Origin: Patescibacteria group bacterium
GTDB lineage: Bacteria; Patescibacteriota; Patescibacteriia; JAHJFT01
Length of the DNA stretch: 64,000 nucleotides
Direction of reading: 5' to 3'
Assembly: GCA_028710985.1 (NCBI GenBank)
Contig: JAQTTB010000001.1
Location: 88,021 to 152,020, forward strand
Positions 1 to 61,772 of the stretch are shown here, one piece after another. The notes beneath the pieces are model-generated. The model did no database searches. It saw only the letters and a list, made by a program, of their open reading frames with translations, and had not been told where the DNA came from. The position numbers and the translations under genes are program-made. Within the stretch, counting starts at the first letter, position 1; each line of letters begins with the position of its first letter.

Positions 1-1093
1 AAGGTCCGACCTCGCCCGAGCAGCTGCCCCAGCGACCCATGGCACAGGTCTGGACGCCGCGAGAGCACTCGCCGAGATCCGTTCCGCATGGCTGGGTACG
101 CCCGTCCGTGCATTCGCAGTTCTCGTCGATCGTGCCGTCGCAGTCGTTGTCCAGCGTGTCGCAGGATTCGGAGTCCGGCATGGTGCCGTCGCAGAGTTGC
201 CAGAACCCACCGAGGCAGGTCTGTTCACCCGTGGTGCAGACACCCATGTCTGTACCACACGGCATATGCGAACCATCGACACACCCGCAGTCCTCGTCGA
301 TAGATCCGTCACAGTCGTTGTCGAGCGCGTCGCATGTCTCGGAATCGGCCATCACGCCGGTGCACAGCTGCCAGAAACCGTCGATGCATTCCTGGCTGCC
401 GGTTGAGCAGATGCCGATATTCGAACCGCAGGGCCGTAGATCGCCCTCGCGGCACTCGCAGTCCTCGTCCACGTACCCGTCGCAGTTGTCGTCCAGGCCG
501 TTGCAGATCTCGGCTTCGGGCGCTATCCCGTCGCAGAGACCCCAGAGGCCGTCGTCCTGGCAGCGCTGCACACCAAAGGTGCACACGCCCTCGGACACGC
601 CGCAGGGTCGCTCCTGACCGAGAGCGCATACGCAACCATTGTCCACACTCCCGTCGCAGTTGTCGTCCACGCCGTTGCAGGCTTCCTCCATATCCGGGTT
701 GATGGACTCGCCCACGCCGGGGGTGTCGTTGCAGTCGTGCAATCCGGTGTAACCATCGCCATCCATGTCCAGAAATGGCAAACAGTCGGGGTCATACGCG
801 TCCGGCAGTCCGTCGTCGTCGTTGTCCAGTCCGTCCCAGCACTCGGCCTGCGTTTCCACGCAAGCGCCGGCTTCGTCCACCGCGATGTCGCAGTCGTTGT
901 CCACGCCGTCGCAGGTCTCGACCGCGGGCACACAGTTCGGGTTCACCACATCGGTGTTCCCGTCGGGCAGGATGCCATCGCCGATCACGTCGGCATCGGC
1001 ATCCGCGTTGCCCTTCTCCATCTGGATGCCGCCGCAGTTCACCGTGAACAGGGCAGCAAGACACAAGCACAGGGTCCGATTGTTTCCCAGCAT
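1..1093 (-). CDS. Secreted/lipoprotein-like Cys- and Asp-rich repeat protein, partial (3' end runs off the window). About 57-aa tandem repeats of the type C-[ND]-G-[LV]-D-[DN]-[ND]-C-D-G-x-[VI]-D-E-x-C...PCG...G.C..G.Q.C..G.W..C, MopE-like putative metal-binding motif.
   Basis: I hand-translated the minus strand from the ATG at 1091-1093 (AAGGAGGA Shine-Dalgarno 5 nt upstream) down to position 2 without meeting a stop. The N-terminus MLGNNRTLCLCLAALFTVNCGG reads as a signal or lipoprotein peptide. The ORF is absent from the track because no stop codon lies inside the window. At least four degenerate repeats are visible; GC3 is about 85%. Confidence 0.6.
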   Translation of the reverse strand, partial: MLGNNRTLCLCLAALFTVNCGGIQMEKGNADADADVIGDGILPDGNTDVVNPNCVPAVETCDGVDNDCDIAVDEAGACVETQAECWDGLDNDDDGLPDAYDPDCLPFLDMDGDGYTGLHDCNDTPGVGESINPDMEEACNGVDDNCDGSVDNGCVCALGQERPCGVSEGVCTFGVQRCQDDGLWGLCDGIAPEAEICNGLDDNCDGYVDEDCECREGDLRPCGSNIGICSTGSQECIDGFWQLCTGVMADSETCDALDNDCDGSIDEDCGCVDGSHMPCGTDMGVCTTGEQTCLGGFWQLCDGTMPDSESCDTLDNDCDGTIDENCECTDGRTQPCGTDLGECSRGVQTCAMGRWGSCSGEVGP

Positions 1094-1420
1094 AGCATCC
1101 TCCTTGTGGTTGTTGCTGGCGTTGAAGCACATCCCGCTACGGGATTGATCGCTCGTCACTCTCTCCATCTTCTTCTCCCTTTCTGGAGTTTATTGCCGTT
1201 TCAGAATTTACAAAATAAAAACACTAGAAGTTTATGTGAAACCCTAGTCAGGCCGCAAAGGTTTGTTGTAATGAACAGATCTTTGCCTGATGAACCATTC
1301 CCTCTCCCGTTTTTCCTCCTATTTCCTCCCAAAACGGTTCATCAAGCTCAAATCTGCCTTATTCTAGCCAAAAATTAAGTCTATAGTATTAACGCAAAAC
1401 CTACATTAATTTAACACCCT

Positions 1421-1449
1421 ATTTTAGCGCAAAATGGCCTTTTTGTCAA
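1421..1449 (-). promoter_or_regulatory. Sigma70-like promoter on the minus strand: TTGACA, 17-nt spacer, TAAAAT. It sits about 320 nt upstream of the gene-1 start.
   Basis: The reverse complement of 1415-1455 reads tgcctcTTGACAaaaaggccattttgcgcTAAAATaggg. A paralogous block lies at 5080-5108. Confidence 0.45.
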
Positions 1450-1615
1450 GAGGCAGACAGGTGAATTATTTTCGCTAATTTAAGCCAAAATAATTTTATC
1501 AAAATTTTTGAGATTTGAGATTTGATTTTTAAGATAAAAAAGTGCCCGCCAAAGTATTGATTTCTCAATAACTTTGACGGGCCTTGTCGCAGGGGTCCCG
1601 GAGGACCCAGAAAGA

Positions 1616-3061
1616 TCAGTCGAAGTCGCTTCTCCAGTCACAGCCGTTACTACCGTAGTTGCGACCGTGATCGCTTCCGAGCGTAGACTTGGACACCACG
1701 TGTCCATCCGGGTAGGTTATGTCCCACTCCAGGATGGGCGACAGGATGTCGGTGTGCACTCCGCTGTCCCACCGGCAGCCCCACATGGAGCCGTCGGACA
1801 CGAGGCTGTAGAAGAAGTTGATGTTGGTGAAGTCCGCGCTGTATGGCAGGCGGAGCTCGCACGTGAACTCGCTCCGGCCGTCGGTGTACCGGCAGTGATG
1901 TCCTGCCGTATCCGAGAGACCGGTCGAGTCGGAGTAGTAGACTCCCGTGGTTCCGAGTCCGGCCGGCCAGATCGTGCCGGTCGCCACGAAGAGCGTCGTG
2001 CGGTCCGAGGTAGACAGGCGGGCGTGAATGCGGAAGGTGTAGAGGTCGCCGGGCTCCGAGCAATCGGGATCCGACATGTCGGTTGAGCCGTCGCAGTCCT
2101 CGTCCAGTCCGCTGGAGCAGACTTCGGACGAAGGGAAGACCGCGCCTTCGCAGTCTCCCGACCAGTCGCCGCTCTCGCAGTACTCGCGGCCGAACTGGCA
2201 CACGCCGAGGTCGCTCGCGGGTCCGCAGTCGCGGTAATCCCCGCTCTCGCACTCGACGTCGCAGTCCGGATCGCCGTCGCAGTCCGGATCTACGCAGTCG
2301 ATGAGCGTGTCGCCATCGTTGTCCACGTGGTCGTCGCAGTCCTCGGGGTCTGTCTCGCACGCCGGGTCGCCATTGCAGTCCGGGTCTACGCAGTCGATGA
2401 GCGTGTCCCCGTCATTGTCGGCGTGATCGTCGCAGTCCTCGTGGCCGCATTCCAGGTCGCGCGTATCGCAGTCCTGGTCGATGCCGTCCTCGCACACTTC
2501 GGTTGCGCCCGGGTGAACCGACGCGTCGGTATCCAGGCAATCGTCGCCGTCTCCGGATCCGATTGCGCAGTGTCCGTCGCCGTCCGCGTCCACGCATTCG
2601 CACTCCGAGTCTTCGCTGTCCACGTCACCGTCGCAGTCATCATCGCGACCGTTGTCGCAGATTTCATTCGCTCCGGGGTGGACGCTCGCGCGCGAGTCGT
2701 CGCAGTCATCGCCGCCATCGTCCTCGCTGCAGTAACCATCGCCGTCCGCGTCGTCGCACTCGCATTCGAGATCGCGGCCGTCGCAGTTCTGGTCGATCAG
2801 GTCATCGCAGACCTCGGTCGCGCCCGGGTGGATGTCCGCCCGGCTGTCGTTGCAGTCGTCGCCTTCCGGCTTGCGGAAGTGTCCGTCGCCGTCGGCATCG
2901 ATGCAACCACAATCGGGGTCGTCGCAGTCCGCGAGCCCGTCGCCGTCGTTGTCGTAGCCGTCGGTGCAGATCTCCTCGTCCGGACCGTGGCCCGGCTCGA
3001 GCATGATATCCTGGCATCCCATGAGGCAGAGAGCAAGGCACACCGTTATGAGCTTCTTCAT
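1616..3061 (-). CDS. Lipoprotein with about eight MopE-like putative metal-binding repeats (C-x-D-x-D-N-D-G-D-[GT]-L-x-D-C-x-D-P-D-C), followed by a roughly 200-aa C-terminal beta-rich domain of unknown function.
   Basis: Track ORF 1616..3250. The internal start MKKLITVCLALCLMGCQD has a lipobox (LMGC) and is preceded by GGAGAAGGAGGACAGG. Motifs such as DDCDDSRASVHPGATEVCDDLIDQNCDGRDLEC recur. The start coordinate is plus or minus 1 nt, taken from the track frame. Confidence 0.65.
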   Translation of the reverse strand: MKKLITVCLALCLMGCQDIMLEPGHGPDEEICTDGYDNDGDGLADCDDPDCGCIDADGDGHFRKPEGDDCNDSRADIHPGATEVCDDLIDQNCDGRDLECECDDADGDGYCSEDDGGDDCDDSRASVHPGANEICDNGRDDDCDGDVDSEDSECECVDADGDGHCAIGSGDGDDCLDTDASVHPGATEVCEDGIDQDCDTRDLECGHEDCDDHADNDGDTLIDCVDPDCNGDPACETDPEDCDDHVDNDGDTLIDCVDPDCDGDPDCDVECESGDYRDCGPASDLGVCQFGREYCESGDWSGDCEGAVFPSSEVCSSGLDEDCDGSTDMSDPDCSEPGDLYTFRIHARLSTSDRTTLFVATGTIWPAGLGTTGVYYSDSTGLSDTAGHHCRYTDGRSEFTCELRLPYSADFTNINFFYSLVSDGSMWGCRWDSGVHTDILSPILEWDITYPDGHVVSKSTLGSDHGRNYGSNGCDWRSDFD

Positions 3062-3300
3062 CCTGTCCTCCTTCTCCTCATTGGAGAAAAATGGTTGATT
3101 TCGGTCATGATTTCGGTCGCAAGATATAAAAAATCCCTCCAATTTTTTTAAACCCTGCGACCGAAACCAGATGCTTGTAAAGAACGCTTTCTTAAGAAAA
3201 TCAATCTTGATTTGCTTGAGGAAGCGGGCGGGAGAGCACGAGATGTGCAACTCCCGCCAAGCTATGTTATTGGGTTGAAGGAACGAACAATGAGGTGGGA

Positions 3301-4833
3301 TTAGAAGAAGAGGATAATCTCGACCCCGACGCTGGCCTGCACGATGCCGGTCCAGCCGCGCACCCCCTGGGGTGTAGTCGGCTCGCTCTCGTCCGCGTTG
3401 ATATTGTACTCGTAGTGATCGAGTCCAATACCCAGAGTTCCGCCGAACCGGACGTATCCCGACACCTTTGCCGGTTTGTTAGGGTCCTTTCCGAAGGGCC
3501 ACGACTTACCGACATCGATGCCGATGAGCGCAATATCGTCCTTGCGCTTCGGGTCCGGGTGGTTCCTGAACCAGAGCTCCTCGTACCCGGTTGCGAGGTG
3601 GTCGTACCCTAGGAAGAATCCGAAGATTCCTTTCGTGCCCGGGAATATTTCCACTCGCCCTCCGGCCAGCATGCCGAAGTTCTCGTCCTCGGTCAGTCCT
3701 CCCATGGGCCCCAGGTGGGCCTTGAAGTTGACCGTGACATTCGATCCGCGGATCTGCAGTATGGTCCACTGCACGACCGCGCCGGCGAAGACTTCGCCGT
3801 TGAACGTCACCATGCCGAGGGCATGGAAGCCGGGACCGGAACCGAGGTTCTTGGCCTTTGCCTTCTTGAGCTCCTCGACGTCGCTCTCCACCTTCGCGAG
3901 GCGCTTCTCCAAGTCAGCGATGCGATCTTCGAGATCGTCCAGTCGCTCTTCCACCTTGGCGAGGCGCTTGTCCAGTCCGTCGAGCCGGGCCTTGAGGGCC
4001 TTGACCTCGGCGGCGAGCGCGTCCAGCTCACCCTTGCTCGCCTTGTCAGCAAGCTGGGCCTGAAGATCGTTCACGATCTCCTGGAACCGCGCGCGGAATG
4101 CCGAGAGCTCCTTGCGAAGCATGTCCAGATCCGCCGGGCTCACACTGCACTCGCACGAAGAAGCCGGAGCCGAGTATGAGTAATCGTAGTGTATCTCACT
4201 CTCCTCGACCTTGGCAGCGCAGCACTTGCCCATCAGGGCTTCGAGCCCCTTGAGCGCGGCCGCGAGATCCTCGATGCGGGTGTCCGTATCCCATGCCCAG
4301 GCGTGAAACTGAACCAGGGTGAGACAGCGCCCGTCCATGGAGCCCTCGATGTCGCCCGGGAGTCCCACTCCATTGGGTACCCACCAGCCGTTCTTCTTGC
4401 CGCACTGGCACCGGTCATCGCACCCCTTGTGCTTCACCGGCTTGTCGTCCGCGACCTTGTCCTTCTTGCAGGACGAGTCCTTCTTGCACGCCGGATCGGC
4501 ACAGTCTTTCTTGCCGTCACCATCGTTGTCCACGCCGTCGTCGCAGTCTTCCACGCCCGGCAGTGAGGGCATGCTCGGAATCGGACACATGTCGTAGCAA
4601 GCACCGAGGTACGCAACGCAGGAATCGAGCTTGCTCTCGCATGCCTGCTTGCCGTTCTCGCAGTCCGCCACGCTGCCGTCGATCGACACGCTGGAAGTCG
4701 TGTTGGCGCACAACTTGCACGCGGCTTCGGGCTTCATCATCGGGATGTCCGATTTCTCGGCATCCTTCTGGCTGAAAGCCGGTGACGCGAACATGCACAT
4801 CGCACACCAGAGCACCATCGTGATCTTCTTCAT
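3301..4833 (-). CDS. Secreted protein with three parts: an N-terminal Cys-rich region carrying one MopE-like motif (DCDDGVDNDGDGKKDCADPAC), a central heptad coiled coil (LDALAAEVKALKARLDGLDKRLAKVEERLDDLEDRIADLEKRLAKVESDVEELKK), and a C-terminal roughly 180-aa domain of alternating-hydrophobic beta strands ending ...VGVEIILFF. The last part could be a beta-barrel, OMP-like.
   Basis: Signal peptide MKKITMVLWCAMCMFASPAFSQ. AGGAGA Shine-Dalgarno. Terminal aromatic Phe-Phe. High GC. Confidence 0.55.
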   Translation of the reverse strand: MKKITMVLWCAMCMFASPAFSQKDAEKSDIPMMKPEAACKLCANTTSSVSIDGSVADCENGKQACESKLDSCVAYLGACYDMCPIPSMPSLPGVEDCDDGVDNDGDGKKDCADPACKKDSSCKKDKVADDKPVKHKGCDDRCQCGKKNGWWVPNGVGLPGDIEGSMDGRCLTLVQFHAWAWDTDTRIEDLAAALKGLEALMGKCCAAKVEESEIHYDYSYSAPASSCECSVSPADLDMLRKELSAFRARFQEIVNDLQAQLADKASKGELDALAAEVKALKARLDGLDKRLAKVEERLDDLEDRIADLEKRLAKVESDVEELKKAKAKNLGSGPGFHALGMVTFNGEVFAGAVVQWTILQIRGSNVTVNFKAHLGPMGGLTEDENFGMLAGGRVEIFPGTKGIFGFFLGYDHLATGYEELWFRNHPDPKRKDDIALIGIDVGKSWPFGKDPNKPAKVSGYVRFGGTLGIGLDHYEYNINADESEPTTPQGVRGWTGIVQASVGVEIILFF

Positions 4834-5079
4834 GGCCTTTCTCCTTGTTTCTTTCTACCCCATCTCTGGGGATTTAGTGTTGTGTCAAAGATCATTTCCG
4901 CGCATATCAAAAATGCACGAGAATCATATTTCCAACACTTTTTTCCGGACAGGCAATGATCAAGTGTTGAGGTTGTTTGGTAAGGATCATGGAGCAAGGA
5001 GGAAATGCTCCAAATCCTTAACCAAACAGCCTCAAAACCCGCCAGACCTGCATGAAACCTATTTCATGAATAACAGGGT

Positions 5080-5108
5080 ATTTTAGCATAAATTTGCTTT
5101 TTTGTCAA
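5080..5108 (-). promoter_or_regulatory. Sigma70-like promoter on the minus strand: TTGACA, 17-nt spacer, TAAAAT. It sits about 240 nt upstream of the start of gene 3301..4833.
   Basis: The reverse complement reads ccTTGACAaaaaagcaaatttatgcTAAAATaccc. This block is roughly 75% identical to the one at 1415-1455. Confidence 0.45.
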
Positions 5109-5232
5109 GGGACGCAAGGCCAAGGCTGAATTTGCACTAGAATATAACGAAAAAAGACTGATGCTCTTTCAGTCTTCTTACCCAAAAAACTATGTTTTGT
5201 CAACCCCTCGACCTTGCTCGGGGCAGGCCTGC

Positions 5233-5859
5233 CTAGTAGCTCTCGGCCCCGAATTGCGGCTTGGCTTTCCAGACCGCGTAGACAAATCCGAGCACCAGGC
5301 CGAACGCAAAGCCCAATCCCGCATTCAGCGGAACATTCGGCTTCACTGGGAATCGGGATGAAAGCGGGTCATCCACGAGTTTTATCTGCACATCGCCGCC
5401 CACGTATTCACTCGATTCAGACGAGAGCGTTGCCGCGACCGCCTGCGCAAGCGCGAGCGACTGATTTTTGTCCGGATGATAAACCGCGATGGTTAAAAGT
5501 CCGGTGCCGCCTTCAACGTTGGAAGAAATCATGTCCGACCATTGCTTGCGGCGCTTTTCGTCATCCTGGTTGAAATAACTTTTATCAATCGCGTAATCCC
5601 CCTCCAGCATCTTGTTGAAAAAGGATGTGGTGTAAATTATTTCCGAAAGATTAATCGCCACCCGTTCCGAAGATTTCACGGCCGTGTACGGATCAAGCCC
5701 GAGCACGCTTTTTTGGATTACTAAAAATCTCACCGTGGTGCTGTACTTCAGTGGTTCAATGAAACTTAACGCCCCGGCAAAAATCATCACCAGGAGCCCG
5801 AATAGAAAAATCTTTTTCCAGTTATATTGAATGAGTTTTAAATAATTTGGACGCATCAT
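5233..5859 (-). CDS. Membrane protein with N- and C-terminal transmembrane helices and a periplasmic-type loop. Wzz/chain-length-determinant-like topology; function unclear.
   Basis: Hydrophobic segments IFLFGLLVMIFAGALSFI and GLGFAFGLVLGFVYAV flank a soluble domain. No diagnostic motif. Confidence 0.35.
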   Translation of the reverse strand: MMRPNYLKLIQYNWKKIFLFGLLVMIFAGALSFIEPLKYSTTVRFLVIQKSVLGLDPYTAVKSSERVAINLSEIIYTTSFFNKMLEGDYAIDKSYFNQDDEKRRKQWSDMISSNVEGGTGLLTIAVYHPDKNQSLALAQAVAATLSSESSEYVGGDVQIKLVDDPLSSRFPVKPNVPLNAGLGFAFGLVLGFVYAVWKAKPQFGAESY

Positions 5860-5888
5860 ACATTAATTCAAAATTAAAAATTCAAAAT

Positions 5889-7061
5889 TCAAAATTTTTC
5901 TTCACTCTCACCCAGGGTCACTGATACTATTTCAGTCTTCCCATCTCGCAATATCCCTAAGCTTATTTTATCACCTGGCGCGTATTCAAGCAAAAGATAC
6001 GCGAGCGAACCACGGCTGTTCAAGATTACGTCATTGAGCGATAAAATAATATCGCCCTCCCGAATTCCGGCGGCCTCGGCCGGAGAATCCGCCACAACCG
6101 CCGGCGGCACATCATCCTTGCCCGGCCATACGAGCGCGCCCTCTTTCTGCCCGGCCGTAATCTCGTCGTCAATTCCGGAAATCCTTGCAAGGTCGAGGTA
6201 CCGGACTCCGAGAAGAGGCCGCGTAATCCTTCCCTCCTTCAACATACTCTTCATCGCCGGAGTCAAGAGTTCGAACGAAAGACCAATCCCGCCCTCGGCA
6301 TCCTTGCCCCAAACGAGACCGATGACTTCGGCTTCGTAATTCAAGATCGGCGCGCCGAGCGGCGCGCCTCCCGCCGCAATAAGCAGCCGATTCGCCGGCG
6401 TGTCAGAATTCTGAAGATAAGTCGTTACGCCTGACGGATCATAGAACTTGCTTACGATATTTGATGAAATAAATTCATCCCGCCCGAACACGATCGCGAT
6501 CCGATCGCCGGAATCCATGAATTCTTCATCCGCAATCTGCACAACCGCGAGATTTTGAGCTGTAATTTTTACAAAAGCTGCGCCGGTTGTTTTATCGATC
6601 AGCATGCTGTCCAATGAATAAATGCTGCCTCCGATTTTGGCGAGTGCATTTCCAATTTTGGTATTTTTAAAAATTTCACCCGGCGCGATTAGCCATCCGT
6701 CCGAAGTAAAAACAACGCCATATCCAAGAATGTCGGTATCAAAATAAATTCCATCTTCAACCGCCTTGCCCGATTTCGTGGTATAGAAAACCGCGAGCGC
6801 CGGTATCACCCTCTCTCTGGCATTCTCTACCGCCGATTCAAAAGTCCCGGGCGAAACAAGCCGCGCCGTCGGGCTCGTAACGCGGGCAACCGGCTGCTCT
6901 ACCAGGCTGGAAAAATAATCTGATAAATACCCAAACGCCAAAAGCGCCCCGGCCGCACCTGCCACAATGCCGATTATCGCAAAAAGCGCCGTCCGGAACG
7001 TAAAGTGCCACAAACTCGGCTTTGTCGCCGCGGCTTCAGGTTCTTTTTTGACTTCATCCAT
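5889..7061 (-). CDS. HtrA-like trypsin-fold plus PDZ protein with an N-terminal transmembrane anchor. All three catalytic-triad positions appear substituted (LIAPGEIF where the His motif sits; AGGAPLGAP where GNSGGPL sits), so it is a probable pseudoprotease.
   Basis: Collinear with the bona fide HtrA at 18216..19496. PDZ segment: GIREGDIILSLNDVILNSRGSLAYLLLEYAPGDKISLGIL. Confidence 0.55.
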   Translation of the reverse strand: MDEVKKEPEAAATKPSLWHFTFRTALFAIIGIVAGAAGALLAFGYLSDYFSSLVEQPVARVTSPTARLVSPGTFESAVENARERVIPALAVFYTTKSGKAVEDGIYFDTDILGYGVVFTSDGWLIAPGEIFKNTKIGNALAKIGGSIYSLDSMLIDKTTGAAFVKITAQNLAVVQIADEEFMDSGDRIAIVFGRDEFISSNIVSKFYDPSGVTTYLQNSDTPANRLLIAAGGAPLGAPILNYEAEVIGLVWGKDAEGGIGLSFELLTPAMKSMLKEGRITRPLLGVRYLDLARISGIDDEITAGQKEGALVWPGKDDVPPAVVADSPAEAAGIREGDIILSLNDVILNSRGSLAYLLLEYAPGDKISLGILRDGKTEIVSVTLGESEEKF

Positions 7062-7126
7062 ATTTTTATATATTTTAATCTATAACCTACAAGCTACAAG
7101 CTAACTTCCTACAAGCTAATTCCTCG

Positions 7127-7888
7127 TCACGTCCAGCGCGCCGTTACGGCCACCAGGAAAAAAATTAATCCGCCAATAAGCGCGTAACGCTTGACCATTC
7201 GCGCATCAAGCTCATGAGAGAAGTGATAGCGCAGCAGGCCGGCTGTAAAATAATATAGTATGGTAAGCATTGCGCCGGAAACCACGAAAGCGGTCGGCAG
7301 CAGCATCAGGACGTAAAAAAATTCAAAAACCGTGAGCGTCAAAACCAGATTATAGGGCCAGCTTTCCCAAAAATTTACTTTCATAATTCGAAAAAGCTGA
7401 TAATTTAAAATCAGCGTAAGTGCGGCGATAATCGCAAGTAGCAGCGGTTTTGGCGCATGAAGAAAAATGTAAAAACCAAAAAGACTCGCTGAAAAAAGAA
7501 ACACCGAAAGAACAGTAAAGTAAAAACAAAGATTTTCCAACGCCCCCTCCTGATATCTTTTTTCCAGATAACCGTGATAAAAAAGATGCTCGGTGTATAG
7601 AAAGATCAAAAAACCTATCAATGCCGCCGCCACGATCTTGATTATCTGACTTTCAAGAAAAAGATTAAAGGCGAATCCGGACAGAAAAAGAAAAAGCGGA
7701 GTAATCAGATTGTGAAAAAAACTGGCGCTGAACCGCAGGTCGTTAAGTAAAAAAACCGCAGCCGCAATCAATAAACTCAAAAAAACAAGAAGCGGCCAAA
7801 TGAGCACCGGCGCCGCGAGAATAATGAGAAATCCGAAAACCGTGATTGTTCCAAGAATATACGGGCAGAAACGCCGTAATAGTAACAT
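7127..7888 (-). CDS. Polytopic integral membrane protein with about eight transmembrane helices; function unknown.
   Basis: Almost entirely hydrophobic 253-aa ORF in the same operon as its neighbours. Confidence 0.4.
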   Translation of the reverse strand: MLLLRRFCPYILGTITVFGFLIILAAPVLIWPLLVFLSLLIAAAVFLLNDLRFSASFFHNLITPLFLFLSGFAFNLFLESQIIKIVAAALIGFLIFLYTEHLFYHGYLEKRYQEGALENLCFYFTVLSVFLFSASLFGFYIFLHAPKPLLLAIIAALTLILNYQLFRIMKVNFWESWPYNLVLTLTVFEFFYVLMLLPTAFVVSGAMLTILYYFTAGLLRYHFSHELDARMVKRYALIGGLIFFLVAVTARWT

Positions 7889-7890
7889 AT

Positions 7891-8658
7891 TTATTTTTTG
7901 AAAGTTGTATATTCTATCGTGCCGTACAAAACTATTTTTTCACGAACAAGATCCATGCGCTCCAAATTAACAAAGCCAATGAGCGGTAATTTCAGGGCCT
8001 TAAGAACCGAATCCAGGAATGTGCCGAATATTGCATCCGCGATCCAAACCGGAACTTTCAAATCACCGAACTTTGCGCTCGTTACATTGAGCCGAATGTC
8101 GTTTTCAACCACTTCGGGCACCGCATTTATGGTGATATAGAATGATTTATCACCGCGCTTAATATGGCCGTACAATTCCATCCCGGCAGTTTCAACCGCC
8201 ACCTGCGCTTTCTCCACTGTAAACCCGCTCTGTTCGGCCAATGGAATAATATTTTGCAGGATAAAGGCCGTGATTGCCGATTCCGGAAGCGAAACACTAG
8301 CCGATGACGCTTGCAATTTCCCCGGATATTCAGTCTCCATCAAATTATTAATGTCGCTGCGCATGCTCTCCAAGAAATCAAACTTACGATAATCTTCTTC
8401 CAGCCTTACCTCGTGCACCGGCTCGGGAACATGAAACGCCCAGCTTGAAATAAAGGGTATATCATAAATTCCGGTCTTAGCGACTCCCCATGCCGCGAGA
8501 AAGGCGACCCCTCCGCCCAAAATCAAAAAAATAACCAGGCATGAACAGCAACGGAACATTTTCCGCCGCTTTGCCTCTTTGTGAATATCTACTTCAACCT
8601 GCTTGCGAATTTCTTTTTTTACGTCCTCCGGATCTTGGGCGGTTTCAACGCGCGTCAT
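7891..8658 (-). CDS. Membrane-anchored hypothetical protein with a cytoplasmic basic N-terminus, one transmembrane helix and an extracytoplasmic domain.
   Basis: KKEIRKQVEVDIHKEAKRRK, then transmembrane CCSCLVIFLILGGGVAFLAAWGV. Confidence 0.4.
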   Translation of the reverse strand: MTRVETAQDPEDVKKEIRKQVEVDIHKEAKRRKMFRCCSCLVIFLILGGGVAFLAAWGVAKTGIYDIPFISSWAFHVPEPVHEVRLEEDYRKFDFLESMRSDINNLMETEYPGKLQASSASVSLPESAITAFILQNIIPLAEQSGFTVEKAQVAVETAGMELYGHIKRGDKSFYITINAVPEVVENDIRLNVTSAKFGDLKVPVWIADAIFGTFLDSVLKALKLPLIGFVNLERMDLVREKIVLYGTIEYTTFKK

Positions 8659-8673
8659 ATATTATTATCGGAA

Positions 8674-9120
8674 TTATTCGGCTAACCACTGATTTTCTTC
8701 AAGCAATTGTTTAAACATGCCGCGGCCCTCGTCGAGATCCTCCGCGCTCCCGCCGAATCCTTTTTCCAAAAAATTCAGAGCAATCACGAAATCCAGATGC
8801 ATTGACTTTGCCTCTTCCGGCACCGCGAGCTCCAAGGCCGTCACTTTTATTTCCGAAGTCAAACCAAGATACGGCGAACGAACCGTAAGCTTATCCAAAT
8901 CCCCTATTTTGCCTGAATAATCACTGACTAATTCTTTTATCGCTTTGTCATACCGCGCTTTTACAACTTCTCGGCTCAAAGAAGCCGGCACCTCGGTACC
9001 GTTTTCGTCCGCCGAAGGCGCCGGCGACGTCATTGAAACGGCAATAACTAAAATGAGCGCCAGGCTTACGCCCGAAAGAAGCAGCCAAAATGAAAATTTT
9101 GATAAATCAAATTTATGCAT
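8674..9120 (-). CDS. Small N-terminally anchored hypothetical protein.
   Basis: Signal or transmembrane segment FWLLLSGVSLALILVIAV. No known motif. Confidence 0.35.
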   Translation of the reverse strand: MHKFDLSKFSFWLLLSGVSLALILVIAVSMTSPAPSADENGTEVPASLSREVVKARYDKAIKELVSDYSGKIGDLDKLTVRSPYLGLTSEIKVTALELAVPEEAKSMHLDFVIALNFLEKGFGGSAEDLDEGRGMFKQLLEENQWLAE

Positions 9121-10180
9121 CTTTTCGTTTCGAATCGTTTGACCAGTCGTCGAGCATGTCCTGGATAAAAACGCTCACCACCGTGGCGATCGGTATTGCA
9201 AGTATGGCCCCGGCGATACCGCCGAGCTTGGCGCCGATCAAAAGCGCGGCGATGCTCACAATGGGGTTCAGGCCCACGGTTTTTTGAGTAATCTTTGGCG
9301 TTAGTACATTATTCTCAAGCTGCTGAATCAAAATATAAACTATCAATACCAAAAGCGCCTTGACCGGCGATTGCACGAATGCGAGAAATATCGCTGGCAC
9401 GGAGGCGAGAACCGGACCGAGATACGGCACGAATTCAGCCGCTGCTGCGATAAGCGCTAGCATTAAAGCATAATGCACGCCCAAAATGGTAAGAGCAATA
9501 TATACAAGCAGCCCGACTAAAAAACTGATCAAAATCTGACCGCGCAGCCAAAGTCCGATTTTGACTTTCATGCGAGAAATCAGTTGAGCGACGTACGGCT
9601 GGTATTTCACTGGTGTTATATTATGGAAGGTGCGCTTCGCTGAGCTCTCCTCCGCAACCATATAGAAAGTCAATACTAATATAAGCACGATTGCCGCAAG
9701 GCCTCCAAAAAATCCGGTAATTGTGCCAAAGAGGCCGCTCATCGCACCGGTTAACCATTCTCCGGCCGCCACGAGCCCGCGCTCTACTCCGGATTCAATT
9801 CCGCGGGAATAGGCATATCCCTTAACGACATTAAAGCCGGATGTAATTTTTTCCCAATAATGCTCAAAATTCGCAGCAAGCTGTCCAATTTCTTCCACGA
9901 GCGGTGGAATAAGCAGAAATAGAATAACCGCGAGAAGCGCCAGAAGCACTACATAAATAAATATTACGGCGAGCGAGCGCGGAATCCGGTGTCTTTGAAA
10001 CCAGTCTGCAAAAGGATCAATCAAGGCGGCGAGGATCAATGCCACGAAAAATATGGCCAAGATATCCCTGATTATCCATAAAAAAACCAGGGTGAGCGCG
10101 ACTAACGCCACTTTGATTATTGTCATCGTGGAGATACCCACGACTCCCTGCCCCGAATGTGGAAATTTTTCAACTGTCAT
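9113..10180 (-). CDS. AI-2E family transporter (PerM/YdiK-like permease).
   Basis: About 350 aa with eight transmembrane helices and the conserved EFVPYLGPV ... QQLENNVLTPKI block typical of PF01594. Confidence 0.8.
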   Translation of the reverse strand: MTVEKFPHSGQGVVGISTMTIIKVALVALTLVFLWIIRDILAIFFVALILAALIDPFADWFQRHRIPRSLAVIFIYVVLLALLAVILFLLIPPLVEEIGQLAANFEHYWEKITSGFNVVKGYAYSRGIESGVERGLVAAGEWLTGAMSGLFGTITGFFGGLAAIVLILVLTFYMVAEESSAKRTFHNITPVKYQPYVAQLISRMKVKIGLWLRGQILISFLVGLLVYIALTILGVHYALMLALIAAAAEFVPYLGPVLASVPAIFLAFVQSPVKALLVLIVYILIQQLENNVLTPKITQKTVGLNPIVSIAALLIGAKLGGIAGAILAIPIATVVSVFIQDMLDDWSNDSKRKDA

Positions 10181-10219
10181 AGCGATTTTTTACTTATTAT
10201 TAATATATAGTATACCAAT

Positions 10220-10249
10220 TTTACAACATGCCGGTCAAACCACTATAAT
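10220..10249 (+). promoter_or_regulatory. Candidate sigma70 promoter (TTTACA, 18-nt spacer, TATAAT) ending about 8 nt before the smpB ATG. This implies a leaderless or near-leaderless smpB mRNA.
   Basis: ttTTTACAacatgccggtcaaaccacTATAATataacggtATG. Confidence 0.35.
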
Positions 10250-10257
10250 ATAACGGT

Positions 10258-10707
10258 ATGCCCGCCATCAGTATCAACAAAAAAGGCCTGCACAATTACG
10301 AAATCCTGGAACGCTTCGAGGCCGGCATTGTTTTATCCGGCCAGGAGGTTAAATCCGTAAAAGGCGGCCAGATGCACCTGGACGGCGCCTATGTCCGCGT
10401 CCGCGGCGGCGAGGCCTGGCTCGTTGGCGCCGAAATCCCAAAATACCGCTTCGCCGGCCCTCTGCCGGATTACGACGCCCAGCGCACCCGCAAGCTCCTG
10501 TTCCGCAAGCGGGAAATCCGTTATTTAACCGGAAAAACCCAAGAAAAGGGGTTGACACTCGTGCCGGTTTCAGTGTATACTTCACGAAGTAAAATTAAGT
10601 TGGAAATCGGGCTGGCGCGTGGCCGGCAAAGCCATGATAAGCGCGATGTAATGAAAGAACGCGATGTCAAGCGCCAAATTGCCCGAGCCCTTAAAAGGGG
10701 GATGTAA
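10258..10707 (+). CDS. smpB: SsrA-binding protein SmpB.
   Basis: GQEVKSVKGGQMHLDGAYV ... RTRKLLFRKREI ... KIKLEIGLARGRQSHDKRD. It lies directly upstream of the tmRNA gene. Confidence 0.9.
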   Translation: MPAISINKKGLHNYEILERFEAGIVLSGQEVKSVKGGQMHLDGAYVRVRGGEAWLVGAEIPKYRFAGPLPDYDAQRTRKLLFRKREIRYLTGKTQEKGLTLVPVSVYTSRSKIKLEIGLARGRQSHDKRDVMKERDVKRQIARALKRGM

Positions 10708-11087
10708 AAGAATCGATAGGAGATCCTTTCATTGGATGCGAACCAAGGGCGGCCCGAACCTTGCAAATCCTCGGCCAATCAACAAATGCCAATTTCATGG
10801 CGAGAGTGAAGAGCGCTTTCAGCGTTCCTTCATTCCAAATGGCTATCGCATAAAATCGATGGCCCATCCGACCCGGTTAAGCTTGCTCACCGGGAGCCGG
10901 GTGTCATATCTGCAAGCTCGGCTCCTGCCGCTGCTCGCGGCCGGAACTTAAACAACCCAGAGCTCGTTTCGGTGTAATTTTGTCGGATTTCCTACCATCG
11001 AAATTAAAAAATCAAATCCGGACATGTTCGTAGAATTCCAATGGATCGGCTCACTAGACAGGGGTGCGATTCCCCTCATCTCCACCA
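10698..11087 (+). ncRNA. ssrA: tmRNA (ssrA), standard one-piece form.
   Basis: 5' end GGGGAUG...GAAUCGAUAGG is tRNA-like. 3' end GGGGUGCGAUUCCCCUCAUCUCCACCA gives a T-arm plus acceptor strand. The acceptor pairs GGGGAUG with CAUCUCC, including a G3-U70 Ala identity pair. Length about 390 nt, adjacent to smpB; the 5' end overlaps the smpB stop. Confidence 0.65.
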
Positions 11088-11217
11088 AACAGTTCATGCA
11101 GCCAAGAGTATTCAATATTTATCGATCGGGGTATTAATAGTAGTCCAAGGAATCGCACGGGCGCGAGAGTCCCGACGAAATGTCGGGACGGTGCGCAGCG
11201 CCCCGGACCCCGAGCGG

Positions 11218-11250
11218 AGCGAGGGGCGATTCCCCTCATCTCCACCAATT
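11218..11250 (+). repeat. Direct duplicate of the tmRNA T-arm, 3' acceptor strand and CCA (23 nt identical: GCGATTCCCCTCATCTCCACCAA). It lies 135 bp downstream of the intact 3' end, the arrangement expected for an att site.
   Basis: Compare 11066-11088 with 11226-11248. Confidence 0.6.
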
Positions 11251-11262
11251 CCAATAATACCG

Positions 11263-11814
11263 ATGAGAATATCAAGAAAAAGATACAAAAAACCGGTTAA
11301 TATCGAACCCCAGTATTTTTATAACGAAAAAATCCGCGTGCCCGAAATCATGGTCATCGCGGAAGACGGCCAGAACCTCGGCGTCATGCCAACCCATGAA
11401 GCAATCCGCATCGCCGCCGAACGGGAACTCGATGTTGTGGAGGTTAATCCCAAGGCCGTTCCGCCGATTGCGAAAATAATGGATTACGGCCAATTTAAAT
11501 ACCAAAAAGAAAAAGAATTCAGAAAACTGCGCGCCGGAGCCCACCGCGTGGAAGTAAAAGGTATCCGCCTTTCCGTGCGCATCAGCGACCATGACCTTGC
11601 CATACGGTGCGAACAGGCAAAAAAATTTCTTGACTCCGGCGACCGCGTAAAAATTGAGATACTTCTGCGCGGACGCGAGAAACAGCATCCCGAACTCGCC
11701 TTTGAGCAGGTCAGCGAATTTATCAATCAGCTTTCGAACGTAATAAAATTAAAAATTGAACAACCGGCGACGCGCCAGGGAGGAATGGTAACCGCGCTTG
11801 TTACAAAAACTTAA
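11263..11814 (+). CDS. infC: Translation initiation factor IF-3.
   Basis: NEKIRVPEIMVIAEDGQNLGVM ... KGIRLSVRISDHDLAIRCEQAKKFL ... IKLKIEQPATRQGGMVTALV. The track ORF 11041.. reads through the tmRNA 3' end, so its first 74 codons are rejected. A non-AUG start further upstream is possible. Confidence 0.8.
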   Translation: MRISRKRYKKPVNIEPQYFYNEKIRVPEIMVIAEDGQNLGVMPTHEAIRIAAERELDVVEVNPKAVPPIAKIMDYGQFKYQKEKEFRKLRAGAHRVEVKGIRLSVRISDHDLAIRCEQAKKFLDSGDRVKIEILLRGREKQHPELAFEQVSEFINQLSNVIKLKIEQPATRQGGMVTALVTKT

Positions 11815-11818
11815 ATCT

Positions 11819-12010
11819 ATGAAACCGAAAACAAAAAAAGCCTATTCCAAAAGATTTACCATCACTAAATCTGGAAAAGTCTTGAAACGCTATTGCGGAC
11901 AGGATCATTTTAACGCCCGCGATTCTGGAAATCAGACCCGAAAAAAACGCCGCGATACCAGCGTTTACAAGGCCTGGGGGAAATTAATTAAAGCATCCGT
12001 AAGTAAATAA
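11819..12010 (+). CDS. rpmI: Ribosomal protein bL35.
   Basis: MKPKTKKAYSKRFTITKSGKVLKR... Follows infC in the classic infC-rpmI-rplT order. Confidence 0.85.
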   Translation: MKPKTKKAYSKRFTITKSGKVLKRYCGQDHFNARDSGNQTRKKRRDTSVYKAWGKLIKASVSK

Positions 12011-12012
12011 AT

Positions 12013-12357
12013 ATGCCAAGAGTAAAACGAGGCACAACTCATTTAAAAAGACGGCATAAAATTCTCGCGCAGGCCAAAGGCTACCGCTGGGGCCGCAAAA
12101 ACCGAATCAAACTTGCGAAAACCGCTATCACAAAAGCCGGCGCCCATGCCTACCGCGACCGCAAGAATAAAAAAAGGCTGAACCGCGGTCTATGGCACAT
12201 CAAGATAAACGCCGCCGTCCGTCCACTCGGATTATCCTACAGCCGATTTATGAACGCACTGAAGAAAAAGAAAATTGAACTGGACCGCAAGGTTCTTGCC
12301 GATCTCGCGGAAAACGAACCCAAAATATTTGAAGCAATTGTAAAAGCCGTAAAATAA
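12013..12357 (+). CDS. rplT: Ribosomal protein bL20.
   Basis: MPRVKRGTTHLKRRHKILAQAKGYRWGRKN... Confidence 0.9.
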   Translation: MPRVKRGTTHLKRRHKILAQAKGYRWGRKNRIKLAKTAITKAGAHAYRDRKNKKRLNRGLWHIKINAAVRPLGLSYSRFMNALKKKKIELDRKVLADLAENEPKIFEAIVKAVK

Positions 12358-12371
12358 TCAATTTGTAAAAA

Positions 12372-12421
12372 CATTCCGACCGCGACCTGCCTGCCGGCAG
12401 GCAGGATCGGAATGTTTTTTA
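12372..12421 (+). terminator. Rho-independent terminator after rplT.
   Basis: cattccga...cctgcctgccggcaggcagg...atcggaatg followed by TTTTTT. Confidence 0.6.
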
Positions 12422-12515
12422 TTCTAATTCAGCCATTGACATGCGGCAATCCGTGTGATAAATCAACATAATAAGTCCTTTGACCCAAACCAAACCTCAG
12501 AAGGAGGAAGCGATA

Positions 12516-13190: not shown

Positions 13191-13202
13191 CCTCTCCTCT
13201 TC

Positions 13203-13234
13203 CAGGACCCTCTCGGGTCCTTTTGTTTTTGTTT
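13203..13234 (+). terminator. Rho-independent terminator.
   Basis: aggaccctctcgggtcct followed by tttgtttttgttt. Confidence 0.5.
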
Positions 13235-13252
13235 AAATAAAAAAATTCCACT

Positions 13253-13292
13253 GCGGACCGTACGGGATTCGAACCCGTGGTCTCCTCCGTGA
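13253..13292 (-). repeat. Copy of the 3' 40 nt of tRNA-Asp (anticodon-stem 3' half through acceptor 3' strand). It is flanked by a CTGCGG/CCGCAG inverted repeat and followed by a U-run on the minus strand.
   Basis: Identical to 13361-13400 of the intact tRNA and about 68 nt away from it. Confidence 0.55.
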
Positions 13293-25200: not shown

Positions 25201-25226
25201 AATTATTAATGAATTTTATTTTCAAA

Positions 25227-60938: not shown

Positions 60939-61083
60939 CTTACACCTCATGCTCCGTTTTCCTCCGGAGCTATCTTGGCCTACCCCTTATCCAACGCACC
61001 ATGCGCCAGACCTAAGGCTTGCCGTGCAAAGAACAAATAATACGCAATAATATCATGGTTTAGCCAAATTGTCAAGACCTTTA

Positions 61084-61662: not shown

Positions 61663-61772
61663 ATAGGTTGAATAGTGTTTCTACCGTCTAAATTCCCGCC
61701 GGAGCCTGTAGTACATATGCGAATGGGGCGGGAATGACAGAGAGATGCGTTCCAATATACTCCCTTCCCACC

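What the first reader, a model, noticed from the sequence alone, without database searches (positions are those of the whole stretch)
1..4833. Compositionally distinct block of three Cys/Asp-rich secreted lipoprotein genes with MopE-like metal-binding repeats
Three consecutive minus-strand genes run at about 65-70% GC with GC3 near 85%, against roughly 50-55% GC (GC3 about 65%) for housekeeping genes in the same window. All three start with a signal or lipoprotein peptide and a strong Shine-Dalgarno. They are built from C-x-D-x-D-N-D-[CG]-D-G...D-C-x-D-P-x-C repeats. These resemble the 'putative metal-binding motif' of MopE-type copper-binding proteins and the Myxococcus-type cysteine-rich repeat. 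Such repeat proteins are typical of high-GC diderms. Here they sit in what otherwise looks like a reduced, probably monoderm genome, flanked by AT-rich host-like intergenic DNA. Horizontal acquisition is one reading; native genes whose GC is driven by D/C/G-rich composition is another.
Basis: partly seen in the sequence, partly recalled or inferred. Interest (0 to 1): 0.65.

Follow-up and report, generated by a model that had tools for sequence, protein, structure and literature searches.

The report
Conserved CPR envelope genes, C-ending codons
Three neighbouring surface-protein genes of a tiny Patescibacteria bacterium look foreign because they use C-ending codons, but they are an old inherited part of that lineage, and one is predicted to form an outer-membrane-type beta-barrel in a phylum thought to have no outer membrane.

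Summary
The compositional anomaly is real: GC3 is 0.80-0.83 in the three genes against 0.56±0.07 in 47 other ORFs.

- **Not an assembly artefact.** Two independent single-run assemblies match the window 100% across both borders.
- **Not amino-acid composition.** Composition predicts a GC3 of 0.57-0.60.
- **Not recent transfer.** The same C–B–A gene order sits beside the same housekeeping genes in related Patescibacteria genomes, and gene fragments from further relatives show the same pattern. GC3 is raised in all of them, although synonymous sites are saturated between them.
- **A codon effect, not a GC effect.** The rise is in C-ending codons only (C3 0.28→0.52, G3 unchanged). It stops at the CDS borders.

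This points to selection on synonymous codons in a few genes. The agent is unknown.

The genes themselves:
- A and B are signal-peptide or lipobox proteins. They are built from PF11617 motifs and teneurin-type Ca2+-binding acidic disulfide motifs.
- C's family has five relatives among 1.84 billion protein clusters.

I read the block as a native, probably abundantly expressed envelope or adhesion module.

The parts
1..1093 (-). Gene A (5' part only; frame 2..1093). Signal peptide ending ...LFTVNC|GG, possibly a lipoprotein. Then one acidic double-disulfide motif, one PF11617 motif and about 57-aa Cys-rich modules (CxxLDxxCDGxxDE...RPCG..G.C..G.Q.C..G.W..C).
   Evidence: The L004 homologue is at least 756 aa, and every assembly breaks inside it.
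1286..1346 (-). Inverted repeat in the leader of A, with a GGAGG-rich loop.
   Evidence: fold of -18.2 kcal/mol. It is aligned with the L004 A-leader. Its function was not tested.
1421..1449 (-). Promoter-like site of A, TTGACA-17-TAAAAT (11/12). It is part of a 31-nt module shared with the C promoter.
   Evidence: 2 matches in 64 kb, 0 in shuffles; also present before the A homologue in L004.
1528..1585 (-). Intrinsic-terminator-like hairpin plus U-run downstream of B.
   Evidence: -39.4 kcal/mol, followed by UUUUUU.
1616..3061 (-). Gene B, 481 aa. It is a lipoprotein (MKKLITVCLALCLMGC). It carries 4 teneurin-type acidic motifs and 3 PF11617 motifs. A conserved orphan C-terminal domain (aa 338-481, nt 1619..2050) follows. 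NCBI calls it from an upstream TTG as the 544-aa MDD4994920.1.
   Evidence: The C-terminal domain has no PDB or Pfam relative.
3062..3300 (-). C-B spacer, 44% GC. It has no consensus promoter and no U-tailed terminator, so C and B are probably co-transcribed.
3301..4833 (-). Gene C, 510 aa (MDD4994921.1). Signal peptide aa 1-21. Cys-rich region with a single acidic motif at aa 97-116 (nt 4486..4545). Long helix or coiled coil at aa 233-325 (nt 3859..4137). Eight-stranded beta-barrel at aa 329-509 (nt 3307..3849), ending ...ILFF.
   Evidence: (pLDDT 80-90 in the barrel).
4958..5043 (-). Conserved 35-bp hairpin in the C leader, with invariant loop UUUCCUCCUU (4996..5005).
   Evidence: 10 pairs have compensatory changes across 4 genomes. 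No Rfam family matched.
5080..5108 (-). Promoter-like site of C, TTGACA-17-TAAAAT with a TG extension. The leader is about 245 nt.
   Evidence: It is conserved upstream of the C homologues in L004, L007 and L011.

Best explanation
The block is a native, vertically inherited cell-envelope gene cluster of a small Patescibacteria (CPR) clade. It is not a foreign island.

**Layout (shown).** A conserved near-consensus promoter and a structured leader drive C-B. A second copy of the promoter drives A.

**A and B (inferred from homology).** They are exported and held at the membrane by an N-terminal lipid anchor. This is clear for B and probable for A. They consist of disulfide-bonded acidic modules. 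By homology to the teneurin C-rich domain these bind Ca2+, not copper, and would make stiff extracellular stalks. B ends in a lineage-specific beta-rich domain that is probably a binding head.

**C (predicted).** It is exported through a cleavable signal peptide. It consists of a Cys-rich, Ca-motif N-terminal part, a coiled-coil rod of about 14 nm, and a C-terminal 8-stranded beta-barrel with a hydrophobic outer face and a terminal aromatic residue. This is the layout of an outer-membrane anchor or tether.

**Function (inferred).** Together they most likely form an abundant surface or attachment layer.

**Composition.** The high GC is a C-ending-codon regime, with G-ending codons for Lys, Glu and Gln. 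It is confined to the coding sequences and held in place by selection on synonymous sites. I propose that selection acts on translation or mRNA performance of these heavily used genes. That selection is acting is shown indirectly. What it acts on is inferred.
For: **Native and vertically inherited**
- L004 has the same order: L20-IF3-SmpB-AI-2E-...-PDZ protease-Wzz-like | C | B | A. L007 has the part from the PDZ protease to B. L010-L012 show the C-B pair, and L011 also has the Wzz-like gene upstream of C.
- Flanking orthologues between the window and L004 are 53-79% identical. A is 48%, B 35% and C 23% by BLASTP. Local alignment gives 55%, 54% and 30%.
- Independent Logan contigs from two runs are 100% identical over 484..13278 and 887..5896.
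- C's barrel domain has only 5 relatives in 1.84e9 clusters. Those whose contigs were fetched lie next to B-like lipoprotein genes. C, the barrel and B's tail have no viral relatives.

**Composition maintained, not inherited from a donor**
- Block against host GC3 is 0.74-0.81 vs 0.36-0.50 in L004. It is 0.76-0.84 vs 0.48 in L010-L012. It is 0.67-0.68 vs 0.56-0.58 in L007.
- Codon identity at conserved residues equals random expectation (0.53 vs 0.52-0.53). Synonymous sites have therefore turned over.

**Selection on codons rather than GC pressure**
- C3 rises from 0.28 to 0.52 while G3 goes from 0.29 to 0.30.
- Tyr, Phe, Asn, His, Asp and Ile use 76-96% C-ending codons, against 32-41% in the host.
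- Gly keeps host-like usage, with GGG at or below 0.12.
- Leader and spacer DNA stays at 40-44% GC.

**Expression signals**
- Conserved promoter-like sites and a conserved leader hairpin, plus a terminator-like hairpin after B.

**Protein function**
- PF11617 and NF033662 hits.
- The match to the teneurin-4 C-rich domain keeps all acidic Ca ligands (PMC9058538).
- The AF2 barrel has pLDDT 80-90.
- Strand positions alternate hydrophobic with Gly/Ser/polar across the family, and aromatic residues sit at the strand ends.
Against: - Ribosomal-protein and IF3 genes in the window show no shift toward C-ending codons (GC3 at A/T-second-position codons 0.23-0.40). An ordinary expression-linked gradient of translational selection is therefore not seen.
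- Near-consensus promoters also precede ordinary genes.
- No expression data were available.
- The barrel is a prediction from a 5-sequence alignment. It has no sequence match to any Pfam OMP family or PDB chain.
- Patescibacteria are regarded as monoderm (PMC12857230), so there is no obvious membrane for the barrel.
- The B model is poor (pLDDT 50).
- Gene A is incomplete and its left flank is unseen.
- MopE-type genes in two unrelated CPR genomes are also raised in GC3 or C3. One lies beside a transposase, so some mobility of such genes in CPR cannot be excluded.
Confidence: 0.7

Rival explanations
1. Recent horizontal acquisition of the three genes from a high-GC diderm such as Myxococcota. 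On this view the high GC is un-ameliorated donor composition.
For: PF11617 proteins are most numerous in Myxococcota and other high-GC diderms. A Kerfeldbacteria MopE gene with GC3 of 0.91 lies next to a Y1 transposase.
Against: - Related CPR genomes share synteny at the same locus, with flanks 53-79% identical.
- Synonymous sites are saturated, yet the contrast persists in every relative examined.
- Only C3 is raised, not G3, and Gly codons are host-like.
- Gene C and B's C-terminal domain exist only in this clade.
- No integrase, tRNA or flanking repeat was seen on the visible side.
Confidence: 0.04
2. Ancient transfer of the repeat-protein architecture (A and B only) into the clade ancestor. 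Lineage-specific elaboration followed, and the present codon usage is maintained by selection.
For: The motif families are shared with many phyla. MopE-type genes occur patchily in other CPR genomes with raised C3.
Against: Nothing in the sequences dates or directs such a transfer. Similarity outside the clade is limited to the short repeats (28-50% coverage). This view does not explain C or orf209. It is compatible with the main explanation rather than opposed to it.
Confidence: 0.2
3. GC-biased gene conversion at a recombination hot spot. Surface genes under diversifying selection would recombine often, and this would raise GC3.
For: A, B and C evolve faster than their neighbours. Repeats could promote conversion.
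Against: - The shift is strand-asymmetric: C3 rises and G3 does not.
- Gly GGG and the NCG codons do not rise.
- The 239-bp C-B spacer and the leaders remain at 40-44% GC.
- Non-repetitive C and the unrelated orf209 show the same regime.
Confidence: 0.08
4. The GC excess is a by-product of Asp/Cys/Gly-rich amino-acid composition in native genes.
For: A and B are 16-21% Asp and 9-12% Cys. GC1 and GC2 are somewhat raised.
Against: - Expected GC3 from composition is 0.57-0.60, against 0.80-0.83 observed.
- Every two-fold amino acid switches preference, for example Lys AAG 92% vs 33%.
- Gene C has ordinary composition.
- The D-rich TSP3 protein at 24565..25200 is host-like.
Confidence: 0.02
5. Chimeric assembly that joins a high-GC organism's contig to a CPR contig.
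For: There are sharp composition steps at 4834-5232, and contigs tend to end inside gene A.
Against: - Two separate single-run Logan assemblies reproduce both borders at 100% identity.
- The same junctions exist in JGI, ENA and NCBI assemblies of related genomes.
- The spacers carry promoters conserved in those relatives.
Confidence: 0.01

Closest known systems
SlpA/OmpM-type outer-membrane tethers of diderm Terrabacteria (N-terminal SLH domain, periplasm-spanning coiled coil, C-terminal beta-barrel; PMC10160955)
   Same: Gene C has the same order of parts: an exported N-terminal domain, a long coiled coil, then a C-terminal lipid-facing beta-barrel. The chain termini sit on the side with the short turns.
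   Different: C has no SLH domain. Instead it has a Cys-rich region with one Ca-type acidic motif. Its barrel has 8 strands, whereas OmpM/SlpA barrels are much larger (from my own knowledge). There is no sequence similarity. The host phylum is regarded as monoderm.
Small 8-stranded outer-membrane barrels (NspA, OmpW, OmpA/OprF N-domain, Ail/OmpX, Thermus TtoA)
   Different: There is no detectable sequence relationship. The barrel is fused to a coiled coil and a Cys-rich domain. It occurs in a genome fragment with no outer-membrane biogenesis genes in view.
Teneurin C-rich domain / NCBIfam NF033662 acidic double-disulfide repeat
   Same: The motif CxDxxDNDGDxLxDCxDPDC aligns with teneurin-4 residues 838-868, and all acidic Ca2+ ligands are kept. 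The crystal structure shows three Ca2+ ions (PMC9058538).
   Different: The bacterial copies have 4-5 Cys rather than 6. They are tandemly combined with PF11617 motifs. Ca2+ binding was not tested here.
MopE of Methylococcus capsulatus (PF11617 'putative metal-binding motif')
   Same: A and B pass the PF11617 cut-off. B aa 53-98 aligns with MopE* residues 4-46.
   Different: Nothing aligns to the rest of MopE*. That is where its copper site (His/His/kynurenine, Helland et al. 2008) lies, according to my own knowledge. These genes are not MopE orthologues, and a copper function is not implied.
Myxobacterial TraA-type cysteine-rich repeat stalks (PMC3325183)
   Same: Secreted, lipid-anchored proteins in which tandem Cys-rich repeats are proposed to form a rigid stalk that presents a terminal binding domain for cell-cell contact.
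   Different: The repeat family is different (TIGR04201 in TraA). A and B have no PA14 domain and no MYXO-CTERM tag. The anchor is at the N-terminus rather than the C-terminus.

Membership tests
PF11617 Cu-binding_MopE motif proteins | Pfam HMM score above the gathering cut-off (27 bits) | tested here: met
   A scores 67.7 bits (4 stretches) and B scores 97.4 bits (4 stretches). C has no hit.
MopE copper-binding protein (orthologue) | Homology across the copper-site region of MopE*, not only the N-terminal motif | tested here: not met
   phmmer aligns only B 53-98 to 2vov residues 4-46. No other significant stretch was found.
NF033662 acidic double-disulfide repeat proteins | NCBIfam score above the cut-off (41 bits) | tested here: met
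   B scores 60.8 bits. A (28.5) and C (33.3) have significant E-values (1e-6 and 3e-8) but fall below the cut-off.
Teneurin-type Ca2+-binding C-rich module | Conservation of the acidic/Asn Ca2+ ligands and the flanking cysteines | tested here: met
   The alignment to 7plp keeps the D/N/D/D/D/D/D positions and 3 Cys. The ligand list comes from PMC9058538.
Teneurin-type Ca2+-binding C-rich module | Actual Ca2+ binding | not testable with these tools
   This needs ITC, a thermal-shift assay or a structure of the recombinant modules.
TIGR02232 Myxococcus cysteine-rich repeat | HMM match | tested here: not met
   It is not among the NCBIfam hits at E<=0.01 for A, B or C.
SlpA/OmpM outer-membrane tether | N-terminal SLH domain | tested here: not met
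   There is no SLH hit in Pfam for C.
SlpA/OmpM outer-membrane tether | Central coiled coil followed by a C-terminal beta-barrel | tested here: met
   AF2 predicts a helix at 233-325 and 8 strands at 329-509. Coiled-coil families hit aa 230-330.
SlpA/OmpM outer-membrane tether | Resides in an organism with an outer membrane (BamA/Omp85 present) | not testable with these tools
   Only 64 kb of the 744-kb contig is held. No OM-biogenesis gene appears among the window ORFs scanned. The rest of the contig could not be fetched.
8-stranded OMP barrels (OmpA/OmpW/OmpX/NspA class) | Closed 8-stranded antiparallel barrel with a lipid-facing hydrophobic surface | tested here: met
8-stranded OMP barrels (OmpA/OmpW/OmpX/NspA class) | C-terminal aromatic beta-signal | tested here: inconclusive
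   Four of six members end in an aromatic residue...ILFF...FILF...FSFQW and ...YSITW. The other two end in ...FGFN and ...FMWRSK.
8-stranded OMP barrels (OmpA/OmpW/OmpX/NspA class) | Sequence membership of a known OMP family | tested here: not met
   No Pfam hit at E<=10 for five barrel domains. No PDB hit with a profile.
Genomic island / horizontally acquired block | Absence from, or different location in, close relatives; donor-like composition at all synonymous sites; mobility genes | tested here: not met
   The block is syntenic in the relatives whose flanks are visible. Only C3 is raised. No mobility gene was seen on the visible side.

The most novel reading that the evidence does not exclude
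Gene C is a genuine lipid-embedded beta-barrel tether. On this reading, this Patescibacteria clade either has an outer lipid layer of its own or plants the barrel in the outer membrane of its host cell. The former would be a remnant or re-invention of the OmpM-type diderm tether in a phylum held to be monoderm. In the latter case the Ca2+-stiffened lipoproteins A and B would form the symbiont-side part of the attachment. The private C-ending codon regime shared with orf209 would then mark a small regulon. Its translation could be tuned separately from housekeeping genes, for example through the decoding of NAC versus NAU codons by G34/queuosine tRNAs.
Probability: 0.2. Interest if true: 0.9.

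Novelty: new variant of a known kind. Interest (0 to 1): 0.6.

Why it matters
**Method.** The block is a clean case in which the standard signature of a genomic island is not due to transfer. That signature is a sharp GC3 step, repeat proteins typical of other phyla, and AT-rich borders. Comparing relatives at synonymous saturation, and counting C3 and G3 separately, separates maintained codon selection from donor composition. Two unrelated CPR genomes show raised C3 or GC3 in their MopE-type genes as well. Island callers may therefore mislabel this gene class in CPR systematically.

**Biology.** The cluster gives a concrete, testable candidate for the surface or attachment apparatus of an uncultured epibiotic lineage. 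It also contains a confidently predicted outer-membrane-type beta-barrel fused to a coiled coil, in a phylum regarded as monoderm. That bears directly on the debate about diderm-to-monoderm transitions in Terrabacteria and CPR.

Tried and rejected
**Searches that found nothing or were blocked**
- A word-index search with whole C found only itself and one weak, short match. A search with an alignment of the barrel domain found nothing. Relatives came only from the exhaustive HMMER search.
- GTDB-representative scans with B's C-terminal domain and with the Wzz-like neighbour found no relative.
- The metagenome scan gave one 1.7-kb fragment.
- Viral contigs gave nothing.
- The afdb50 fold library was unavailable.
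- The NCBI 744-kb contig could not be fetched through NCBI's 544-aa version of B. Gene A's 3' end, its left flank and the rest of the genome remain unseen.

**Analyses that were uninformative**
- The structure model of B was too poor to search (pLDDT 50).
- Rfam found no family in 1..5400.
- PHROGs and Pfam gave nothing for orf209.
- Wright's Nc against GC3s did not discriminate, because host genes also lie well below the curve.
- Promoter strength alone is not special. Eleven 11/12 matches occur in the window, several before ordinary genes.

**Readings considered and rejected**
- Phage or mobile-element origin: no viral relatives of C or of B's C-terminal domain, and no mobility genes in view.
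- Overlapping antisense genes: the long alternative-frame ORFs are the expected by-product of high GC3.
- A copper-binding role: only the non-copper part of MopE aligns.


Full report
**1. What is at 1..4833**

Three minus-strand genes lie here.
- A occupies 2..1093. Only its first 364 codons are in the window.
- B occupies 1616..3061 (481 aa). NCBI calls it from an upstream TTG as the 544-aa MDD4994920.1.
- C occupies 3301..4833 (510 aa, MDD4994921.1).

Each gene has a Shine-Dalgarno sequence and an N-terminal export signal. B has a canonical lipobox (LMGC). A ends its signal with TVNC|GG. C has an SPase-I type site.

The source is an NCBI MAG named 'Patescibacteria group bacterium', on a contig of 744,538 bp. 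The rest of the window fits a CPR genome. It holds FtsZ/FtsA, PpsA, pyruvate kinase, HisRS, two Asx-tRNA synthetases, TopA, DprA, RelA, ParAB, ScpAB, LytR-Cps2A-Psr, signal peptidase and two PF18895 T4SS-pilin proteins, one of them 3205 aa. Patescibacteria are described as monoderm epibionts (PMC12857230).

**2. The compositional observation is real**

- GC3 is 0.80, 0.83 and 0.81. The 47 other ORFs average 0.561±0.071 with a maximum of 0.70, so z = 3.4-3.8.
- The excess is uniform along each gene. It stops at the CDS ends: the A leader, the C-B spacer and the C leader are 40%, 44% and 43% GC.
- One further ORF, 60321..60950 (orf209, MDD4994971.1), has the same composition.

**3. Not a mis-join**

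Logan contigs assembled separately from SRR22315508 and SRR22315509 match window 484..13278 and 887..5896 at 100% identity with no gaps. They cross every GC step.

**4. Not amino-acid composition**

- With host codon usage, the three proteins would have GC3 of 0.57-0.60.
- Every two-fold amino acid flips preference (G/C-ending share, block vs host): Lys 92% vs 33%, Tyr 96% vs 35%, Phe 91% vs 32%, Asn 81% vs 33%, Asp 76% vs 41% and Glu 72% vs 39%.
- Gene C is not Asp/Cys-rich (9% D, 4% C), yet it is as shifted as A and B.
- A D-rich TSP3-repeat protein at 24565..25200 keeps host codons.

**5. Not recent transfer**

*Synteny.* B's only full-length relatives carry the same orphan C-terminal domain.
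- L004 is a 140-kb JGI contig that was also assembled by ENA and Logan. It has L20-L35-IF3-SmpB-AI-2E-...-PDZ protease-Wzz-like, then C-, B- and A-homologues.
- L007 (GCA_018813925.1, Patescibacteria) shows the part from the PDZ protease to B.
- L010, L011 and L012 show C followed by B.

*Divergence.* Between the window and L004, flanking orthologues are 53-79% identical. By BLASTP, A is 48%, B 35% and C 23%. Local alignment gives 55%, 54% and 30%.

*Composition contrast in the relatives*:

| Locus | Block GC3 | Neighbouring host genes |
|---|---|---|
| L004 | 0.74-0.81 | 0.36-0.50 |
| L010-L012 | 0.76-0.84 | 0.48 (spacers 41-44% GC) |
| L007 | 0.67-0.68 | 0.56-0.58 |

*Saturation.* At conserved residues, the fraction of identical codons equals that expected from independent draws. 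It is 0.53 vs 0.52-0.53 for B and C, and 0.40-0.47 vs 0.35-0.43 for most flanking genes. Synonymous sites are therefore close to saturated. A donor signature would have decayed. What is seen is an equilibrium maintained separately in each lineage.

**6. What kind of force**

- The rise is in C-ending codons only. C3 goes from 0.28 to 0.52 in the window and from 0.20 to 0.50 in L004. G3 stays at 0.29→0.30 and 0.25→0.28.
- In four-fold families, NNC gains while NNG does not (CCG 0.67→0.53, GCG 0.47→0.40, GGG 0.14→0.12). Gly usage is the same as the host's (GGC 0.47, GGA 0.23, GGT 0.18, GGG 0.12). GGG stays at or below 0.12 in all relatives.
- The index 'GC3 at codons with A/T in second position' separates A, B, C and orf209 (0.83-0.84) from all 47 other ORFs (0.23-0.62). 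No ORF falls between.
- A symmetric GC pressure, whether donor composition or biased gene conversion, should raise G3, GGG and the transcribed spacers. None of these rises.
- I therefore infer selection on synonymous codons within the reading frames.
- The agent is not established. L20, L35 and IF3 show no such shift, so this is not an ordinary expression gradient.
- MopE-type genes in two unrelated CPR genomes also stand out from their neighbours. In Kerfeldbacteria GCA_018500015.2, C3 is 0.65 vs 0.22 and G3 is 0.26 vs 0.23. In GCA_035290185.1, GC3 is 0.69 vs 0.48-0.58. The phenomenon may be general for this gene class in CPR.

**7. Expression signals**

- C and A are each preceded by the same 31-nt module, CTTGACAAAAA..GC.A.TTT..GCTAAAATA. 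This is TTGACA-17-TAAAAT, with a TG extension before C. It occurs twice in 64 kb and never in shuffles.
- Equivalent sites precede the C homologues of L004, L007 and L011 and the A homologue of L004. They leave leaders of roughly 200-330 nt.
- B has no such site. C lacks a U-tailed terminator, whereas B is followed by a strong one. The units are therefore C-B and A.
- The C leader contains a 35-bp hairpin (4958..5043). Ten of its pairs show compensatory changes across four genomes. Its loop UUUCCUCCUU is invariant and looks anti-Shine-Dalgarno-like. No Rfam family matches.
- Near-consensus promoters also precede ordinary genes, so this is supportive evidence only.

**8. The proteins**

*A and B.* Both pass PF11617, and B passes NF033662. 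Two motif types alternate.
- The acidic motif CxDxxDNDGDxLxDCxDPDC aligns to the teneurin-4 C-rich domain with all acidic ligands conserved. That domain binds three Ca2+ ions in a 1.5 A structure (PMC9058538).
- The PF11617 motif aligns only to residues 4-46 of MopE*. Nothing aligns to the region where, from my own knowledge, the copper site lies.
- 'Calcium-stabilised disulfide modules' is therefore the better description.
- TIGR02232 was not hit.
- B's last 144 residues form a conserved domain with no Pfam or PDB relative. Its model was too weak to interpret.

*C.* It has one acidic motif only.
- AlphaFold2, with a 5-sequence alignment, gives a long helix (233-325) and eight long strands (329-509) at pLDDT 80-90.
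- Across six family members, strand positions alternate between hydrophobic and Gly/Ser/polar. Aromatic residues sit at the strand ends. Four of the six chains end in an aromatic residue.
- The long loops lie opposite the termini, as in outer-membrane proteins.
- The barrel domain has five relatives among 1.84 billion cluster representatives. It has no Pfam or PDB sequence match.

**9. Interpretation**

- *Shown:* the cluster is native and syntenic in relatives, it uses a private codon regime, and it carries conserved promoter-like sites and a conserved leader hairpin.
- *Inferred:* A and B are membrane-anchored, Ca2+-stiffened stalks, and B carries a binding head. This is comparable in logic to the Cys-rich stalk proposed for myxobacterial TraA (PMC3325183). 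C is a coiled-coil rod ending in a lipid-embedded barrel. That is the part order of SlpA/OmpM tethers (PMC10160955), but without an SLH domain and with a small barrel.
- *Unknown:* which lipid layer holds the barrel. Candidates are an unrecognised outer layer or the host's outer membrane. This is the most interesting open point.

**10. Verdict**

The finding as proposed, a foreign island, is not supported. What is there is a lineage-specific envelope module with an unusual, conserved codon regime and an unexpected outer-membrane-type protein.

Noticed in passing
window 60321..60950 (-), promoter-like site 61047..61076: orf209 (MDD4994971.1, hypothetical) has no signal peptide and no Pfam or PHROG hit. 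It uses the same C-ending codon regime as the block (GC3 0.83, C3 0.49). It has its own TG-extended TTGACA-17-TATTAT site. It is the only other such ORF among about 50 in the window.
   Followed up: partly
window 4958..5043 (-), loop 4996..5005: A conserved 35-bp hairpin lies in the 5' leader of gene C. Its loop UUUCCUCCUU is invariant and looks anti-SD-like. Ten base pairs show compensatory changes across four genomes. No Rfam family matches. It is a candidate new cis-regulatory or stabilising leader RNA.
   Followed up: partly
window 1286..1346 (-): The leader of gene A carries an inverted repeat whose loop is rich in GGAGG. The loop is complementary to the CCUCC loop of the C leader. A possible interaction was not tested.
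   Followed up: no
L014 566..2317 (GCA_018500015.2, Candidatus Kerfeldbacteria) and L015 1..1795 (GCA_035290185.1): MopE-type genes in two unrelated CPR genomes also stand out from their neighbours. The first has GC3 of 0.91 vs 0.35-0.52, with C3 raised and G3 flat, and lies beside a Y1 transposase. The second has GC3 of 0.69 vs 0.48-0.58. The codon anomaly may be general for this gene class in CPR.
   Followed up: partly
window 5233..5859 (-): The Wzz/chain-length-determinant-like membrane protein next to the block is the best conserved gene of the neighbourhood. It is 79% identical to its L004 counterpart, more than ribosomal protein L20 (77%). It always sits directly upstream of C.
   Followed up: no
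window 1..1093; L003, L004, L006 ends: Every fetched independent assembly (Logan, JGI, ENA) breaks inside gene A or its homologue. The cause is probably its repeats of about 57 aa. The L004 homologue is already 756 aa and still incomplete.
   Followed up: partly
window 24565..37105 (-): This is a surface-protein cluster with ordinary host codon usage. It contains a TSP3_bac repeat protein, a 3205-aa protein and a 600-aa paralogue. The 3205-aa protein has an N-terminal T4SS-pilin domain plus TIG/Big domains. Not all secreted proteins share the C-ending regime.
   Followed up: partly
window 61085..61740: REP-like palindromes (GGATTCCCGC...GCGGGAATGAC) are clustered around and inside a GIY-YIG nuclease gene (61204..61614). 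That gene has the lowest GC3 of the region.
   Followed up: no
whole window (host genes): Host codon usage is itself split. Codons with G/C in second position have GC3 of about 0.75 (NCG-rich). Codons with A/T in second position have about 0.44. This is why host genes lie far below Wright's Nc curve.
   Followed up: partly
GTDB-representative scan: Neither B's C-terminal domain nor the highly conserved Wzz-like neighbour found any relative in one genome per 185,579 species. This clade appears to be missing from the species-representative set.
   Followed up: no
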